A DNA stretch of 64,000 nucleotides from the NCBI GenBank assembly GCA_001244265.2, contig CDLV01000012.1:620001-684000 (forward strand), in the 5' to 3' direction. Under the pieces are notes generated by a model, which did no database searches, was not told where the DNA came from, and saw only the letters and a program-made list of their open reading frames with translations. Shown here piece by piece: positions 23,964-31,753 of the stretch. The DNA is from Microbotryum violaceum. Lineage: Eukaryota. How positions within the stretch are numbered: the stretch's first letter is position 1; the number at the start of each line of letters is the position of its first letter. The position numbers and the translations under genes are program-made.

Positions 23964-26853
23964 ATGGCCATCCCAATCAGTCAAGTCGCTGCAGCCCTGT
24001 TGGTAATCCTCGTCGCGGCGTGGTTCTTCTCGTCCCAATCCTTGGGCGCCGGCGCAAGCTCGTCCTCGATCGACAAGGCCGGCCTCAGCAACGGCGGCGC
24101 GAGTCATGCCGCTGCGGGTGACGAAGAGTCCTCAGGGCGTGATTTCGTCGCGGCGATGCAGAAAGCGGTGAGTCATGCGGCTCAACTCGCATTCGTGGTC
24201 GTGGGGACATGTCGTGCGCTGTGGATGAATCCCGGGATTGGCGAGTTGAGCGCTGCGGGTAGGATGGTCGTGGTTCGCGTACGGGCCGTCGTTTTGCCGC
24301 CGCGTGAGCCGCGGGCCTTTCAAAAGGCTATCAGGCCTCATTCCTCGTCATCCAATCCTCTGAGAACAATGGAGTTTATTGACCCCAGTAGAACATGTCG
24401 ACCGACACCCAATACCCTGATCTCCCGATGACGACAACTCGACGCTGACGAGTGGTTTCCTCCTTCCCCGGCGCACTTTCCCACCTTTCCCCACTCCGGC
24501 CGTCGCTGCCCTTCCCGGTCTGCAGAAGAAGAAGATTGTCATCTTTTATGGATCTCAAACCGGTACAGCGGAAGACTATGGCACCCGTATCGCCAAGGAG
24601 GCCAAGTCGCGCTACGGCCTGTCCTCGCTCGTCTGTGATCCTGAAGAGTGAGTTGCCACTTCCGGCGATTCTGGCGATCGAAGCGCTTTGATCGCACACG
24701 ACCGCGCGATACCGGGACTGATCGCGAGCTTCCTCGATGGTAGATACGATTTCGAGACGTTGGACCAGGTCCCCGAGGATGCGCTCGTCGTCTTCTGCGT
24801 CGCGACATACGGCGAGGGTGAACCGACCGATAACGCGGTGGGTCTCATGGACTTCCTCAAGGGGGACACGATCGAGCTCTCCAAGGGTGGGGACTCGCTC
24901 GAGAACCTCAACTATGTCATCTTTGCTCGTGAGTTATCTGGCACCGTTTCGCCAGCCGGCGTCGGGAGTAACCCGATGGCCGCAGCGGAACTAGCGCTGG
25001 GTGCCATCTCACATGCGCAATACCATGCTGATGCTCTCATATTCGCCTCATAGTTGGTAACAGCACCTATGAACACTTTTGCGCCATCGGTCGTCAAATC
25101 GACGAGCGTCTTAGCAAGCTCGGCGCCAAGCGTGTCGGCGAGCTCGGAGAAGGTGACGACGATAAAAACATGGAAGAGGACTACCTCAGCTGGAAGGACG
25201 GGATGTGGGAAGCGGTGCAGAAGCAGCTCGGGTGGGAGGAGGGGGCCGGCGGTGATGTCGCTGATTTCGAGGTGACGGAAAAGTCCGAGGTCGACGAGGC
25301 CAAGGTCTTCTTGGGCGAGTTGTCGCATCGCGCCTTGACGGGAACCCGAGGCGTCTTTGATGCCAAGAACCCTTACGCCGCACCGATCCTCGAGGCCAAG
25401 GAGTTGTTCGAGGACGGTGACCGCAACTGCGTTCATGCCGAGTTCGACATTTCCGACTCGGGCGTGCGATACCAGACCGGTGACCACGTTGGTGTTTGGC
25501 CCCTCAACCCCGATGCCGAGGTCGAACGCTGGCTCCGCATCTTGGGTCTCTCGGAAAAGCGCGACCAGGTCATCGACGTCAAGTCGCTCGACCCGGCTTT
25601 GGCCAAAGTCCCCTTCCCCGTTCCAACGACGTACGACACCGTCCTTCGTCACTACGTCGATGTCTCCGGCCTCGCTTCTCGGCAGACCGTCGGCTCCTTC
25701 GCCAAGTACGCCCCAACTGAGGATGCCCGGCGATTGCTCGAGCAGCTCGGTTCGGACAAGGCCTTGTACCAGGCTAAGGTCGGTGCCCCTTGCTACAAGA
25801 CATCACAGGTCTTGCTCCTTGCCGCTGGTGACTCGCTCACGGCCGACCCAGCCTCGGCGAACTACAAGCAATGGTCCATCCCTTTCGATCGCGTCATCTC
25901 CAGCATCCCCCGTCTGCACCCTCGTTACTACTCGATCTCGTCGTCACCAAAACTTTACCCCACTGCGATCCACATCACCGCTGTTGTGCTCAAGTACCAG
26001 GCCGTGAAAGGCGATCCTGCGTACTCGTACGGTGTCGGCACGAACTACATCCTCAACCTCAAGGTCGCCCACACAGGTGGTGCCCGAACGTCTCGCGAGG
26101 AGGGTACACCCGTCTATAAGATCGAGGGTCCGCGTGGCAAGTACAAGAAGGGCTCGGCGTTCTGCGCTCCGATTCACGTACGCCGCTCCAACTTCCGCTT
26201 GCCGACGTCACCCAAGATTCCCGTCGTCATGGTCGGACCTGGTACGGGTGTCGCGCCGTTCCGAGCCTTCATTCAAGAACGTGTTGCGCTCGCTCGCAAG
26301 GCCAAGGAGAAGGATGGTGCCGACGCGCTCAAGGACTGGGGTACGATCGACCTCTTTTACGGGTGCCGTCGCTCGGACTGGGATTTCTTGTACAAGGACG
26401 AATGGAAAGCGTACGAACAAGAATTGGACGGCAAGTTCCGTATGCACGTCGCCCTTTCACGCGAGCCGAATCAACCCAAGGTTTACGTGCAGCAGTTGAT
26501 CAAGGATTTGGGCGATCATATTGGAGATTCGCTCGTTGCTAGGAAGGGTTACGCTTACATCTGGTCAGTCTTTGCTTGAGATAGTTCAAAGGGGAGCGTC
26601 GTGAATTGATTGAGGGTTGTGCTCTCTTCTTTACAGCGGTGATGCCAAGCATATGGCGCGCGAGGTCGAGGACATCTTTGAGGACATCCTTGGGAAGGCC
26701 AAGGGAGGCAGCAAGGCCGAGGGAGCCAGGGAGCTCAAGTTGCTCAAGGACCGAAACCGTCTCTTGCTCGATGTGAGTATATCAGTGCAAGTTTTGCACC
26801 TCGTTCCGAGTTCGGGAAGGCTAATCCGCTCTGCGTTCCAGGTGTGGTCATGA
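23964..26853 (+). CDS. CPR1: NADPH-cytochrome P450 reductase, multi-exon
   Basis: N-terminal TM anchor, FMN motifs YGSQTGTAED and ATYGEGEPTDNA, FAD motif RYYSISSS, GPGTGVAPF, FYGCRR and C-terminal DVWS*. Confidence 0.97.
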
Positions 26854-27310
26854 TCGTCACCTCTTTATTTGGCAAATGTCCTCCATAAAGCTGTGTCCAT
26901 GTCTTGCTTTCTCACGCACAGAGATGTTTACGTCATATGCAACGAATCTTTTTATGGTCTGTATGCCGAGTTGGTGTAGTCGAACGAGAACGAAATCAAA
27001 ACCAAAGCAAAGCATTTCCAGCATCAGTGCTGTCGGAGCGAGATCTTCAAGGATCCCGAGCGTCTTCCCCCCCAGGATGGAAGCCTTCCTATTCGGTGAC
27101 GAGAGAGAATGTACACCCAGATCACAAAATATATGACTTGCTGCAGCGATACGTCGTTTTGGTATGGGAAAAGTCGGGCCGATTTGGTTCAGACTGGATC
27201 GGAAAAAGGCTCGGTCGGAGCTCGTCGGCTCGATGGTCGCCAATCTTGCTCTTGACTTACCTGCTTCCGTTGCGTCGTGCTGCAGCATCGCAGCTCAGAC
27301 CCAAGCTACG

Positions 27311-29067
27311 ATGCTTGCGGTACCAAATCGGATGCTACCACCATCGGGGACAGTGTTATTTATTGTAAATGCTCTACTTCCCACTGCAAGCCGGCGGACG
27401 TTCAGCAGCACGTCGTTTCGTCGATCGACGTCATCAAACTCATCATCGTCCCCGTCTGCATCCTCCTCCTCATCGGGCGAGGGCAACACGACATCCAATA
27501 CATCCTCTATCCCACCCTTGATCGGTAGCGCACCCCAACTACGACGCCACCTCGTAATTCACACCAATAACGCCGCTTCGACGTGGCCTTCGCACCTCGA
27601 ATCGACGTCGGCCTTGTACAAACATTTGGGCCAGCGATGGGCCAAACATCCTGAGTTGAGCAAGTTGGGCTTTGGGATGAGTGATGCGGGGTTGAGGAAT
27701 GAGAGGGAGGTTAGGGATGGAGGAGGGAACTGGGATCCCTCGACTAATCGATTCGAAGAACCGAAGGCATCGGGATCGGAGGAGTAAGTTTTGATGATTG
27801 CGGAGTGGAGGGGGTTCACGAGCTGAAAGGATTTGAACTTGTTGCACAGGATCTATTCGGCGACGTTGTACCCTGATTTTATACAAGTACCCCAAATTTC
27901 TATCTCGTCGATCGAGACATTCGAGAACCTATTCCTTTCCCTAGATCCCGTTCCGATAAAATCCGCCGTCTCGGAAACGGCCGCTCCACTTAGAACGGAC
28001 ATCTACGTCTGCACGCACGGCACTCGGGATTGTCGGTGTGGGGATATTGGAGAACCCCTGTATAAAAAATTGGTCGAGCGGGCTCAGCGGAGGGATTTGG
28101 GCCCGGATCGAGTTGGGATAAATAGGATCGCTCATGGTGGGTCGACAAATCTTTGCTATTTCTGTATCTTAGCGGGGCACGGGCTGAAGTGCAATCGCCG
28201 GTGGTCCTTTACAGTCGGTGGACACAAGTGGGCTGGGAATGCACTCGTGTATCGACAAGGGGGTGAATGCGATTGGTGAGTCCCCCAAAATGCTAGACCT
28301 CTTTACTCTTGCTTCGGCGACTGATGGCCCATTTGAATCCCAACCCCGAAAGGCTCGGATTGCTGAGGGATACGGACGCAGATGAGGTACTGGACTTTGC
28401 ACTCCGGCCCAGTCCCATCACACCTTGGTGGACCCGCTGGCGAGGCCGACTCGGAATTAGTTCGGACGAAGCTAGATCAATGTACCAAGATGCAACCGCG
28501 CCAGGTGCGACGATCGAGGCGAGGAAGAAGAGGAAGGAGAGTGTGCGGAACGCGTTGGGCGATCCGGTGCAGTTGAGTTTCTTGAGTTGGGATAAGGTCG
28601 ATCGGTATGATGTGACGGCTTATGAGGGAGAATCGGTGATGGTTAGTCCTTTCCAACGCTCTCTGAACATAATCGATCGTGTGATAGCAGAGAACTGATC
28701 GGACTGTCGGTCCTTCTTTGATCGACACAGGAGGCAGCAAAACGCAATGACCTCCCGGCGATCCTTGCGACCTGCGGTGGGTTCTGCGAATGCGCAACAT
28801 GTCATGTTCATGTTGATGTCGACCCGGAGCAAGTTGGTTGGTCCGAGATGACCGACGAAGAGGACGAACAGCTCGATTTTGCGATGGACCGCAAGCCGGA
28901 CTCAAGGTGAGGGGGTTCCGCCTTTCTGCACCAGTAGGTGCTCACTCATTGACTTCTGGGTTCATCGGCGACCGTATTCTCAAAGGCTTGGCTGTCAATT
29001 GCGCGTTACGAAAGCGTTGGGCGAGTGGGTACAAGGTGGGGGTAGGATCACGCTGCCGCGATATTAA
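27311..29067 (+). CDS. Fusion of an Aim32/Apd1-type (sucrase/ferredoxin-like) domain and an adrenodoxin/Yah1-type 2Fe-2S ferredoxin, with predicted mitochondrial presequence; 6 exons
   Basis: VCTHGTRDCRCG...RIAH|VGGHKWAGN...WRGRLG, then CGGFCECATCHVHV...S|RLGCQ. Introns 27784-27849, 28137-28214, 28276-28352, 28642-28730 and 28907-28985. Confidence 0.85.
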
Positions 29068-29153: not shown

Positions 29154-30381
29154 TCAAGCGTCAGTTTTGGGTTCCCACCCTTCATGATACTGGGGTGATC
29201 GTTCGGGGAGGACCTTGTGCAAGGGTACGGCGGCCCAGAAAAGGACGGCAAGCGCGACAGGGGCGAATTCAAGGAGTCCGAAAAGCCATTCGTTCGAGCT
29301 GGCGTATCCGAAGATGCCTTCTGCTGTTTCGGCGAGACGGTAGACCTGTGACGCGTGAGAAGGAAATGTAAGTTTCAGAGAATGTCGGGCTGAATCGAAG
29401 TGTCCAGCAAGTCGTGGGGCTTACAGTTCGTGTAAGAACGAGGAACGAAGTGATGCTCAGGATAGCGAGGAACGTCTTCCTCAGCGGTGTCGGCGTCATC
29501 TTGCTAGCCCTAACAGCGAAGGTGATAAGAAGGTAGTAGAAGCATAAGAAGGACGCGCATTGTAACGCCAGACCACTGAGGAGGATGTCATTCGCTTGTT
29601 GGGGGGTGATGCTGCTTGGATCGCCTCTTGTGCGCGAAGATTCGGCAACTCCGATGAGAGCCGCGCCGGCGATCTGGATGATGGTCGTGATGGTGTCGGC
29701 AATGACGAAGACTAACGAAGACAAGGGGTTAGCTCTGTAATAATGCGACCTCGATGCATCTAGGAACCTCACTGATGACCAATTTTTTGCCTCCGAAGGG
29801 CATCAATGTGCGAGACTCGTTCGGAGGTAGACGGCCAAGAGCGTTCGATAGTGCCAGGTACTAACGGTCATAAAAGCATGCATGAGAACTTGACCTTGAA
29901 GAGGAGATTACAAGGGCAATTGAGTCAGAACTTACAAAGGCACCGCTGAAGAAGCATGGCGCGACAACGATGAGAAAATATTGCGCTACGAAGTACGATA
30001 CGATGAACAGGTTCTTGTGCGATAAGATGCGCACAACGTATCTGTGGGAAGCCCAACATATCCGATGTTAATCAAGAGCTGTGTATCATCAAGCCAGGGC
30101 CCGGTTGCAGAAGGGCAAGTCTTGCTTCAAGCTCGAAAGACTGACCCGCCGACTTCCATAGCACAGCCGCACACAATGAGGATCTGAAACGTTCTTGTCC
30201 CCCGTGACATCACTAAATATAAAAAGTGAACGATGAAGGAGAGGGCAAAAATGACGGTTGCTACGTAGGCGAAGATGTTGGACGGTCGGTAGCCGTAAAT
30301 CGAGATGCGCGCCTCGCCGTCGGGTGGGTTGGGATTGGAGTTGACGGGGCCTCGGTAGCCGGGCGGGAGGTAGCCTGACAT
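29154..30381 (-). CDS. RTA1-like 7-TM lipid-translocating exporter family protein, multi-exon
   Basis: IYGYRPS, CAMEVGGY, FVIADTITTIIQIAGA, LLSGLALQ and YRLAETAEGIFGYASSNEWLF. Confidence 0.9.
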
Positions 30382-31753
30382 TTTCTGGATTGGTTTATGA
30401 GATGGGGCTCCGAGGAGTGGGAGGTAAGGCTGAGGTGCTGCGATTGGGAAGGGCGGTTGTGAGATGGAGCTCCGCGGAGAAATGAGACCCCTGGTCGAAT
30501 TCGAAGTTGGCGAGCCTGGCCTGATGTGAGGGTTGTACCAGGTGAATACCAACCGGAAGACTTGGAAATGGTGATATTAAGGGATGCAGTAGGTAGGTGC
30601 CTGAGAAAGGGAGCAGAACCTCTGTTGACTGAGGGTCTTGATTCGACAGCCCTTCAAAGCTTCAAAGCCTGCAAATGCTTTAACGCAGCCCATGCCAAGC
30701 CCAGTCCAAGGCCTACGTCAGAGCGCGGGCTTCGGCGAGCGCCGTGACGATCGGGCTGCTTGGGCTCGCCTGCGCTTGCTGATCCCGGAAGCCTGCTCGG
30801 CCCCCTCCCAACGGATCCCAACCACCACCTTTCGTTTCCGCGGTGGACGAGGCGAGGCCGGGTCATTGGTTCAGGCTCAGCAAGGCAGTAAGTGATGAGT
30901 ATCTGGGCCGATACGTATTTATTTGGTCATTGCAATAGTGCCCCCCTCTCATCCTTCACTGGGATTGGACTTGGGCGTCGAAGTTTGTGACGAAATCCGA
31001 GCGACTCGATCCGAAATACATGCCGGCGATTAAGAGCTGGATTTGTAAGAACCAGGTACTAGTGGCGTGAGCGACCTTTGATGTCGAAGGAACAATAACC
31101 ACATGCCTCGTTGGTAGCCATTGAAAGCTCAGCATCGCAGGAGTAAGCGACTCGGGTTGGCTGCCCAGGAGAGGGTTCGTTGGCTGTATGCATTGCCGCG
31201 GTTTGGACCAACACCTGCTGAGCCCGAATGACGCTGCGGCTCGAGCTTTGTTAGGGCTGTCTCAGTAGATGACGGTCAGTTTAGGGTGGCAGTAACCACA
31301 CTTACGCATCCCTCGCGCCCATGATCGAGTCTGCGGGATAGTGTTGCTTCGAGCCGGCGAAGTGAAGCGTGTCCGGACCGATTAGCTAGGCTAGACATAG
31401 TGGGGCGCCACCGTGCTCCTCGCATAGCGGCTTCCACTGCAGTGTCCTTGTATTCAGCAGCCGATCATAGGTGGTCCCAGCCGGAACGTAAGGTTTACTT
31501 GATACTTTGCGCGTCGAAACGAAGTCATGATTGTGATCGGCACGATGCACTTGCCGATCGCAATCGCCGCTGTGAAAGATGCTTTCCGCAGAGTGGACAT
31601 GGTCTGTGCGAGAAACCTGGATCCCGGCGAAGTCATTTGCCGTCAACCCAAGCCTCGCGCTAGCCTGTTCTCCCTCTCGCGGACTACACCAGCTGGCACT
31701 CCGCACCGACCCACCCCTCACCACCCTCCCACCCTCCCACCTCGCAAGTCACC

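What the first reader, a model, noticed from the sequence alone, without database searches (positions are those of the whole stretch)
27311..29067. Two-cluster ferredoxin fusion: Aim32/Apd1-type His2Cys2 domain joined to a Yah1/adrenodoxin-type Cys4 domain
Seen: C-X8-C (CTHGTRDCRC) plus HVGGH, followed by C-X5-C-X2-C (CGGFCECATC)...RLGCQ. The junction lies inside one stop-free exon (28353-28641), so it is not a gene-merging artefact. The N-terminus is Arg/Ser-rich like a mitochondrial presequence. Established: yeast Aim32/Apd1 bind a bis-histidyl [2Fe-2S] cluster as stand-alone proteins, and Yah1-type ferredoxins are reduced by Arh1. Inference: a built-in electron relay, and a Rosetta-stone hint that ferredoxin is the redox partner of Aim32-family proteins. 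I do not know of a characterised protein with this architecture.
Basis: partly seen in the sequence, partly recalled or inferred. Interest (0 to 1): 0.75.

Follow-up and report, generated by a model that had tools for sequence, protein, structure and literature searches.

The report
Fungal Aim32–ferredoxin two-cluster fusion protein
In this fungus and many of its relatives, a mitochondrial iron-sulfur protein that yeast makes alone (Aim32 type, job unclear) is built in one piece with its own ferredoxin, which points to where the family probably gets its electrons.

Summary
The fusion is real. A six-exon gene (27311-29067) gives 455 aa: a presequence-like N-terminus, a sucrase/ferredoxin-like (Aim32/Apd1-type) domain with C-X8-C-X31-H-X-G-G-H, and an adrenodoxin-type domain with C-X5-C-X2-C-X37-C. 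Two public runs each give one contig with all five introns removed as modelled. The same architecture occurs in 95 other proteins, from basidiomycetes, chytrids, Gonapodya, Mortierella, Calcarisporiella and Dispira, with all eight ligand positions conserved in the alignments. The ferredoxin half was lost again in most sampled Agaricomycetes and in Ustilago.

A separate YAH1-like gene, an ARH1-like gene and an Apd1-like gene (ending in a cytosolic targeting tripeptide) exist. The fused domains form their own lineage, whose origin is unresolved. New detail: a nearly invariant extra cysteine lies beside the second ligand.

Most likely mechanism (about 0.6, inferred): NAD(P)H → Arh1 → tethered Cys4 cluster → His2Cys2 cluster → an unknown acceptor. 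Cluster binding, localisation and electron transfer were not shown. The domain pair is visible in automatic annotation, but I found no paper on it; the key 2019 JACS paper was not readable.

The parts
27311..29067 (+). Whole gene, six exons, 455 aa: Aim32-type thioredoxin-like ferredoxin region fused to an adrenodoxin-type ferredoxin
   Evidence: gene model; spliced contigs; 81% identical to an annotated Microbotryum intermedium protein
27311..27783 (+). Exon 1 (aa 1-157): presequence-like N-terminus (about aa 1-45), Ser-rich stretch, start of the N-terminal half of the Suc_Fer-like region
   Evidence: 5 Arg, no acidic residue in aa 1-45; alignment with relatives; no Pfam hit on this exon alone
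27850..28136 (+). Exon 2: C212 (28010-28012), extra C219 (28031-28033), C221 (28037-28039), H253 (28133-28135)
   Evidence: (Suc_Fer-like 53.7 bits)
28215..28275 (+). Exon 3: completes H-V-G-G-H, H257 at 28223-28225
28353..28641 (+). Exon 4: end of the first domain (WRGR at 28438-28449), linker, first strands of the ferredoxin domain (from about 28564)
28731..28906 (+). Exon 5: C385 (28773), E390, C391 (28791), C394 (28800); acidic helix D412-D419 (28854-28877)
   Evidence: (Fer2 24.5 bits)
28986..29067 (+). Exon 6: C432 (28993-28995), C-terminus LPRY, stop
27223..27310 (+). Upstream stretch covered by the spliced contigs (probable 5' untranslated region; contigs cannot show a start)
   Evidence: table 8

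Best explanation
This is the mitochondrial (Aim32-like) member of the bis-histidyl [2Fe-2S] family, carrying a dedicated adrenodoxin-type ferredoxin on a flexible tether. SHOWN: one spliced reading frame; both ligand sets conserved across distant fungi; two separate folds in a model of a relative; separate YAH1-, ARH1- and APD1-like genes in the genome. INFERRED: (1) import into mitochondria; (2) two [2Fe-2S] clusters bound; (3) Arh1 passes one electron from NAD(P)H to the Cys4 cluster through the acidic helix; (4) the ferredoxin domain swings on its linker and passes the electron downhill to the higher-potential His2Cys2 cluster; (5) that cluster, with a proton, reduces a small acceptor, most likely a redox-active phenolic or quinone, or its iron complex, protecting mitochondria from redox-cycling compounds. 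Lineages that lost the ferredoxin half would use a free ferredoxin (Yah1) instead. Odds: fusion real 0.97; both clusters bound 0.9; relay in this direction 0.6; this class of acceptor 0.3.
For: Spliced contigs join both domains. All eight ligand positions are invariant or nearly so in alignments A1 (69 rows; first His 90% or more) and A2 (58 rows). The 24 sampled fused ferredoxins form one group (90/93) whose supported subgroups follow fungal classes, so the fusion is old and inherited. A separate Yah1 exists, so the fused domain is not needed as the general ferredoxin. An ARH1-like gene with a presequence-like start exists (L183; E 8.6e-14 to adrenodoxin reductase). The acidic helix is kept (consensus), and this helix is the binding surface for both reductase and acceptor in human ferredoxins (PMC11618653, passages), which fits a mobile domain and a linker of variable length (57-146 aa from WRGR to the first ferredoxin Cys, n=90). 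His ligands raise the potential by up to about 200 mV each and allow proton-coupled transfer in Apd1/Aim32 (bioRxiv 10.64898/2026.10.21.760712, passages; PMC11138216, passages). Yeast Aim32 protects sod2 cells from primaquine (PMC4683384, passages); apd1 cells are sensitive to gallobenzophenone (PMC11126956, passages). Model of the Rhodotorula relative: pLDDT 88.1, pTM 0.75; its parts match thioredoxin-like ferredoxins (5abr Z 11.3, rmsd 2.2, 96 aligned) and adrenodoxin-type ferredoxins (3hui Z 18.3, rmsd 1.8, 110 aligned).
Against: Nothing here shows cluster binding, localisation, contact between the domains or electron transfer. The ferredoxin half is dispensable in some fungi: 7 unfused Agaricomycete-clade proteins and a Ustilago protein nest among fused ones. 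The reported partners of yeast Aim32 are Erv1, Osm1 and import components; the words Yah1 and Arh1 do not occur in that paper's main text (PMC8482512). The annotated protein of the closest relative (P0001) lacks the first His; I read this as a gene-model error but could not test it. Orthology to yeast Aim32 was not tested, as no yeast sequence was fetched. The spliced contigs come from one study. Some fungal models carry unrelated extra domains by gene merging (e.g. P0008), so annotation alone would not have sufficed.
Confidence: 0.6

Rival explanations
1. Composite precursor: two independent mitochondrial proteins share one gene and one presequence and are cut apart after import, or simply stay tethered without exchanging electrons. 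The ferredoxin then serves other clients (heme A, coenzyme Q, lipoate).
For: A ferredoxin fusion is known in fission yeast (Etp1; PDB entry 2wlb is its ferredoxin part; that it is fused to Cox15 and cleaved is recalled, and the review passage describes the fusion differently). Relatives of this gene pick up other mitochondrial partners: lipoyl synthase in a Ustilago protein, FAM210 in two chytrid genera. The window's linker is basic (net +3).
Against: The linker has no conserved Arg-rich internal presequence: several linkers have no Arg, some are acidic, and the shortest are under 15 aa. The pairing of these two domains persisted from chytrids to basidiomycetes while a free Yah1 was available.
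Confidence: 0.15
2. Reverse or different chemistry: the His2Cys2 domain, with its extra Cys219, works on protein thiols as proposed for yeast Aim32, and the ferredoxin recharges it or drains electrons from it.
For: Yeast Aim32 forms mixed disulfides, and its loss raises aberrant disulfides (PMC8482512, passages). The extra Cys is present in 94 of 96 full fusions and absent from the protist and Apd1-like proteins sampled.
Against: The extra Cys is missing in 2 full and 4 of 10 partial fusions, chytrid where named, and is kept in unfused basidiomycete proteins, so it does not track the fusion. One-electron clusters near -160 mV (value recalled for Apd1) are poor disulfide reductants (inference).
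Confidence: 0.15
3. Ferric-chelate reductase: the relay ends on Fe(III) bound to a catechol, siderophore or similar ligand, releasing Fe(II) in the matrix.
For: A bacterial member of the same InterPro family sits in cyanobacterial siderophore uptake cassettes, with iron reduction suggested but unproven (bioRxiv 10.64898/2026.07.30.741596, passages). Gallobenzophenone is a trihydroxyphenyl compound that can chelate iron (chemical knowledge).
Against: That cassette gene was dispensable in the heterologous host. No sequence feature tested here marks a substrate site. Neighbouring genes are a P450 reductase and an RTA1-like gene, not iron genes.
Confidence: 0.1

Closest known systems
Saccharomyces cerevisiae Aim32 (mitochondrial) and Apd1 (cytosolic), Pfam PF06999
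   Same: C-X8-C-X24-75-H-X-G-G-H motif (PMC11138216) met with X31; thioredoxin-like ferredoxin fold; a presequence-like copy and a copy ending in a CIA tripeptide coexist in this genome (tripeptide rule PMC10245660).
   Different: The yeast proteins have no adrenodoxin domain as described in the papers read. This protein adds one, and an extra Cys two residues before the second ligand.
Mitochondrial ferredoxins Yah1, FDX1, FDX2 and bacterial putidaredoxin-type ferredoxins
   Same: C-X5-C-X2-C-X37-C, acidic helix, S-R-L-x-C-Q motif, same fold.
   Different: Fused behind another Fe-S domain; separate lineage from Yah1; invariant Glu before the second Cys where the sampled Yah1 proteins have Ala; lacks the C-terminal tail of this genome's Yah1.
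Schizosaccharomyces pombe Etp1
   Same: A mitochondrial ferredoxin fused C-terminally to another protein (2wlb).
   Different: Etp1's partner is heme A synthase and it is the only Yah1 of its cell (recalled); here the partner is an Fe-S domain and a free Yah1 is kept.
Multi-domain electron-bifurcating enzymes and complex I subunits with thioredoxin-like [2Fe-2S] domains (NuoE, StnB and similar)
   Same: Thioredoxin-like [2Fe-2S] domains working in a chain with other clusters (fold matches).
   Different: Those use Cys4 ligands within flavin-containing complexes (recalled). None of the 50 listed chains covers both domains of this model.

Membership tests
Aim32/Apd1 bis-histidyl [2Fe-2S] family | C-X8-C-X24-75-H-X-G-G-H motif | tested here: met
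   C212-X8-C221-X31-H253-V-G-G-H257; motif definition PMC11138216
Aim32/Apd1 bis-histidyl [2Fe-2S] family | Pfam Suc_Fer-like above cut-off | tested here: met
   53.7 bits on exon 2 alone, cut-off 34.9
Aim32/Apd1 bis-histidyl [2Fe-2S] family | Thioredoxin-like ferredoxin fold | tested here: met
   model of relative P0016, residues 164-275: 5abr Z 11.3, 1f37 Z 11.1; the window protein itself was not folded
Aim32/Apd1 bis-histidyl [2Fe-2S] family | Bound [2Fe-2S] cluster with two His ligands | not testable with these tools
   needs spectroscopy
Aim32 (mitochondrial orthologue) | Cleavable presequence and no C-terminal CIA tripeptide | tested here: inconclusive
   composition fits; 67 of 94 full fusions starting with Met have 3 or more basic and at most 1 acidic residue in the first 30 aa (counted by eye); ends LPRY, while the paralogue ends LSW; no predictor or localisation data
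Aim32 (mitochondrial orthologue) | Groups with yeast Aim32 in a tree | not tested
   no yeast or other ascomycete sequence was among the named proteins fetched
Adrenodoxin-type [2Fe-2S] ferredoxins | C-X5-C-X2-C-X35-37-C | tested here: met
   C385, C391, C394, C432; many relatives have a longer insert between the third and fourth Cys (33-73 aa)
Adrenodoxin-type [2Fe-2S] ferredoxins | Acidic helix for reductase binding | tested here: met
   D412-D419 aligns with the Yah1 and adrenodoxin helix; one Glu invariant in A1 and A2
Adrenodoxin-type [2Fe-2S] ferredoxins | Reduction by adrenodoxin reductase (Arh1) | not testable with these tools
   an ARH1-like first exon is present in the genome; activity untested
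Yah1 orthologues | Falls inside the Yah1 clade | tested here: not met
   10 Yah1-type rows including this genome's L004 form a 100/98 group without the fused domains; a sister relation is neither shown nor rejected (p-AU 0.50)

The most novel reading that the evidence does not exclude
Early fungi had a second, dedicated mitochondrial ferredoxin lineage, distinct from Yah1 and possibly of separate alphaproteobacterial origin, that exists only tethered to Aim32. The fusion is the ancestral, self-contained form of an Arh1-fed reductase whose His2Cys2 cluster (with an accessory Cys) does proton-coupled reduction of quinones or ferric catechol complexes. Yeast Aim32 is the reduced form that borrows Yah1. 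This would name the missing electron source of the family and give a one-protein assay for its substrate.
Probability: 0.25. Interest if true: 0.75.

Novelty: new variant of a known kind. Interest (0 to 1): 0.55.

Why it matters
[quoted passage not shown] I found no reductant assigned to Aim32 in the passages read. A fusion kept from chytrids to basidiomycetes proposes one: an adrenodoxin-type ferredoxin fed by Arh1. It makes two cheap tests possible: does Yah1/Arh1 reduce yeast Aim32, and what oxidises the fused protein once it is NADPH-driven. It is also a natural His2Cys2 plus Cys4 two-cluster protein for electron-transfer studies. The audience is specialist, and the domain pair already sits unnoticed in automatic annotation.

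Tried and rejected
Gene-merging artefact: rejected. The fusion being this genome's only Yah1: rejected. The third Fer2 hit (L002) looks like a xanthine dehydrogenase-type N-terminus, read by eye. Yah1 duplication versus bacterial origin: no verdict; the tree has 106 columns for 54 rows, and the bacterial set with the Glu signature was fetched with words from this exon, so it is enriched by design. A search for short stand-alone relatives of the ferredoxin domain found only 5 proteins among 7 candidates, mostly fragments of fusions. A first structure job failed. A planned scan of charge and conservation per domain gave no result. A Pfam scan for Arh1 scored 10 of 34 candidates and missed it; a short pattern found it (the second match, L184, is unrelated). 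No listed run is on record as RNA; X1 showed no joints and cannot be read as RNA. A link to the upstream P450 reductase gene was considered and dropped: it is a separate contig in the spliced runs and synteny was not testable. No ascomycete appears among named hits; these searches are not exhaustive, so absence is not shown. No earlier finding of this scan matched. Literature searches that found no description of the fusion. Stegmaier et al. 2019 (JACS) is not held; it, its supplement or theses from that group may mention this architecture. Supplements of the other papers were not opened.

Full report
1. What is in the sequence. The window is fungal DNA with short introns. The nearest named protein is from Microbotryum intermedium, 81% identical to my model over 447 aligned residues. 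Six exons between 27311 and 29067 join to 455 aa without a stop, all five introns GT..AG. Exon 2 passes the Pfam cut-off for Suc_Fer-like and exon 5 that for Fer2. The candidate ligands are C212, C221, H253, H257 and C385, C391, C394, C432.

2. It is one transcript. No listed run is on record as RNA. Of four runs laid, X10 and X11 each give a single contig that skips exactly the five modelled introns and has no other letters; both belong to one study. X8 covers the region unspliced, and X1 gives six short unspliced pieces. Contigs drop rare variants, so minor splice forms are not excluded.

3. It is old and widespread. A search with the two-domain part of P0001 gave 86 proteins, 40 with both Pfam labels already attached (counted from the table). 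A full HMMER search added more. Among 233 proteins examined, 96 have both complete motif sets, 10 have the second set incomplete, 58 have only the first (many are fragments) and 69 have neither in full. Named fusions come from Microbotryomycetes, a rust, Malassezia, Tilletiaria and other Ustilaginomycotina, Naematelia, Cantharellales, several chytrid orders, Gonapodya, Mortierella, Calcarisporiella and Dispira. All eight ligands are invariant in A2 (58 rows); in A1 (69 rows) seven are invariant and the first His is in at least 90%. The ESM Atlas returns eukaryote-only clusters with this domain pair. One result against: P0001 as annotated lacks five residues including the first His, probably a splice error in that model, untested.

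4. History. In a tree of 54 ferredoxin domains (24 fused, chosen for spread; 10 Yah1-type; 20 bacterial; 20 near-duplicate rows of the 74 collected were dropped; 106 columns), the fused domains form one group (90/93) and the Yah1-type rows, including this genome's own, another (100/98). Forcing fused and Yah1 together costs 0.10 log units (p-AU 0.50), so the source is open. The fused domains have an invariant Glu before the second Cys, shared with one proteobacterial type and not with the sampled Yah1 proteins; the bacterial set was fetched with that word. In a tree of 38 first-domain sequences, basidiomycete proteins form a 99/99 group. Seven unfused proteins (three named: Phanerochaete, Somion, Sistotremastrum) sit with the fused Cantharellales proteins (99/97), and a Ustilago protein without ferredoxin sits with fused Ustilaginomycotina (99/99). 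The simplest reading is one early fusion and at least two later losses; deep branches are unresolved and long.

5. The rest of the genome. A free YAH1-like gene with its own presequence-like start lies on C5 (L004). A second Suc_Fer-like gene on C18 (L005) gives 398 aa, has no ferredoxin and ends L-S-W, matching the tripeptide that marks cytosolic clients such as Apd1 (PMC10245660, passages). An ARH1-like first exon lies on C4 (L183). So the cell has the yeast set, with the fusion in the place of Aim32. That assignment rests on targeting features, not on a tree with yeast proteins.

6. Structure. AlphaFold2 on the Rhodotorula toruloides relative P0016 (57% identical) gave pLDDT 88.1 and pTM 0.75. 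Residues 164-275 match thioredoxin-like ferredoxins (5abr Z 11.3; 1f37 Z 11.1) and 298-434 match adrenodoxin-type ferredoxins (3hui Z 18.3; 3lxf Z 17.4). No listed solved chain covers both, and sequence searches of the PDB found no Aim32 or Apd1 structure. The distance between the clusters is not known.

7. An extra Cys (C219) sits two residues before the second ligand in 94 of 96 full fusions, 6 of 10 partial ones and 46 of 58 first-domain-only proteins; the sampled protist and Apd1-like proteins lack it. C221 is the invariant one, so C219 is probably accessory. The linker varies widely (57-146 aa from WRGR to the first ferredoxin Cys, median 78, n=90) and has no conserved Arg-rich signal, which fits a tether better than a cleavage site.

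8. Mechanism. Shown: the points above. Inferred: import; two clusters; Arh1 reduces the Cys4 cluster through the conserved acidic helix, the surface human ferredoxins use for both reductase and acceptor (PMC11618653, passages); the domain then swings to the His2Cys2 cluster, whose His ligands should raise its potential and couple a proton (bioRxiv 10.64898/2026.10.21.760712, passages; PMC11138216, passages). The acceptor is the weakest step. Yeast phenotypes point to redox-active drugs and phenolics (PMC4683384; PMC11126956; PMC4298746; PMC8482512; passages, plus one section of the last). I put the relay at 0.6. Rivals: independent or cleaved domains 0.15, thiol chemistry 0.15, ferric-chelate reduction 0.1.

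9. Comparison and novelty. It meets the sequence and fold tests for the Aim32/Apd1 family and for adrenodoxin-type ferredoxins, and fails the test for being a Yah1 orthologue. Eight literature searches (listings and abstract starts seen) and passages of ten papers showed no description of the fusion. The founding 2019 JACS paper was not available and supplements were not read, so prior mention is possible. The domain pair is present in automatic annotation. Verdict: a real, ancient, apparently unstudied variant of a known family that makes the family's electron source directly testable. Interest 0.55.

Noticed in passing
P0135 (Ustilago loliicola, 791 aa) and P0141 (unnamed, 492 aa): The orthologous first domain, without ferredoxin, continues through a presequence-like stretch into a complete lipoyl synthase. 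P0141 shows the same domain and the same linker start, then an unrelated LRR tail. Several Malassezia fusions are labelled 'lipoyl synthase' by their source. Possible composite precursor in smut fungi; lipoyl synthase is a ferredoxin client (PMC10462841, title only). No Atlas cluster with both domains was listed.
   Followed up: partly
P0043 (Fimicolochytrium), P0092 and P0222 (Powellomyces): The fusion continues after the ferredoxin through a presequence-like stretch into a further domain, FAM210A/B-like in P0043; P0092 has a similar tail by eye. Another possible composite mitochondrial precursor.
   Followed up: partly
window 25032-26852, + strand (5' part further upstream): NADPH-cytochrome P450 reductase gene directly upstream on the same strand (FAD_binding_1, NAD_binding_1, Flavodoxin_1). 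Separate contig in the spliced runs.
   Followed up: partly
window about 29270-30580, - strand: RTA1-like gene facing the fusion gene. The spliced contigs run on past 29345 across what looks like one of its introns, so the two 3' ends probably overlap.
   Followed up: partly
window 29071: All four runs laid have one extra C after this place, four bases behind the stop codon: probably an assembly slip in the window, outside the reading frame.
   Followed up: yes
L005:1181-2675: Apd1-like paralogue, 398 aa, with an N-terminal C-X2-C and a C-terminal L-S-W tripeptide.
   Followed up: yes
L010 (G000:C3:2185464-2186528): Gene with a Rieske-like C-X-H stretch ahead of a pyridine nucleotide-disulfide reductase domain, AIF-like by eye.
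   Followed up: no
P0145 / P0227 (Diplonema papillatum): Two tandem copies of the whole Aim32-type region in one protein.
   Followed up: no
L023-L102: A proteobacterial adrenodoxin-type ferredoxin group sharing the Glu before the second Cys with the fused domains; neighbourhoods not examined.
   Followed up: partly
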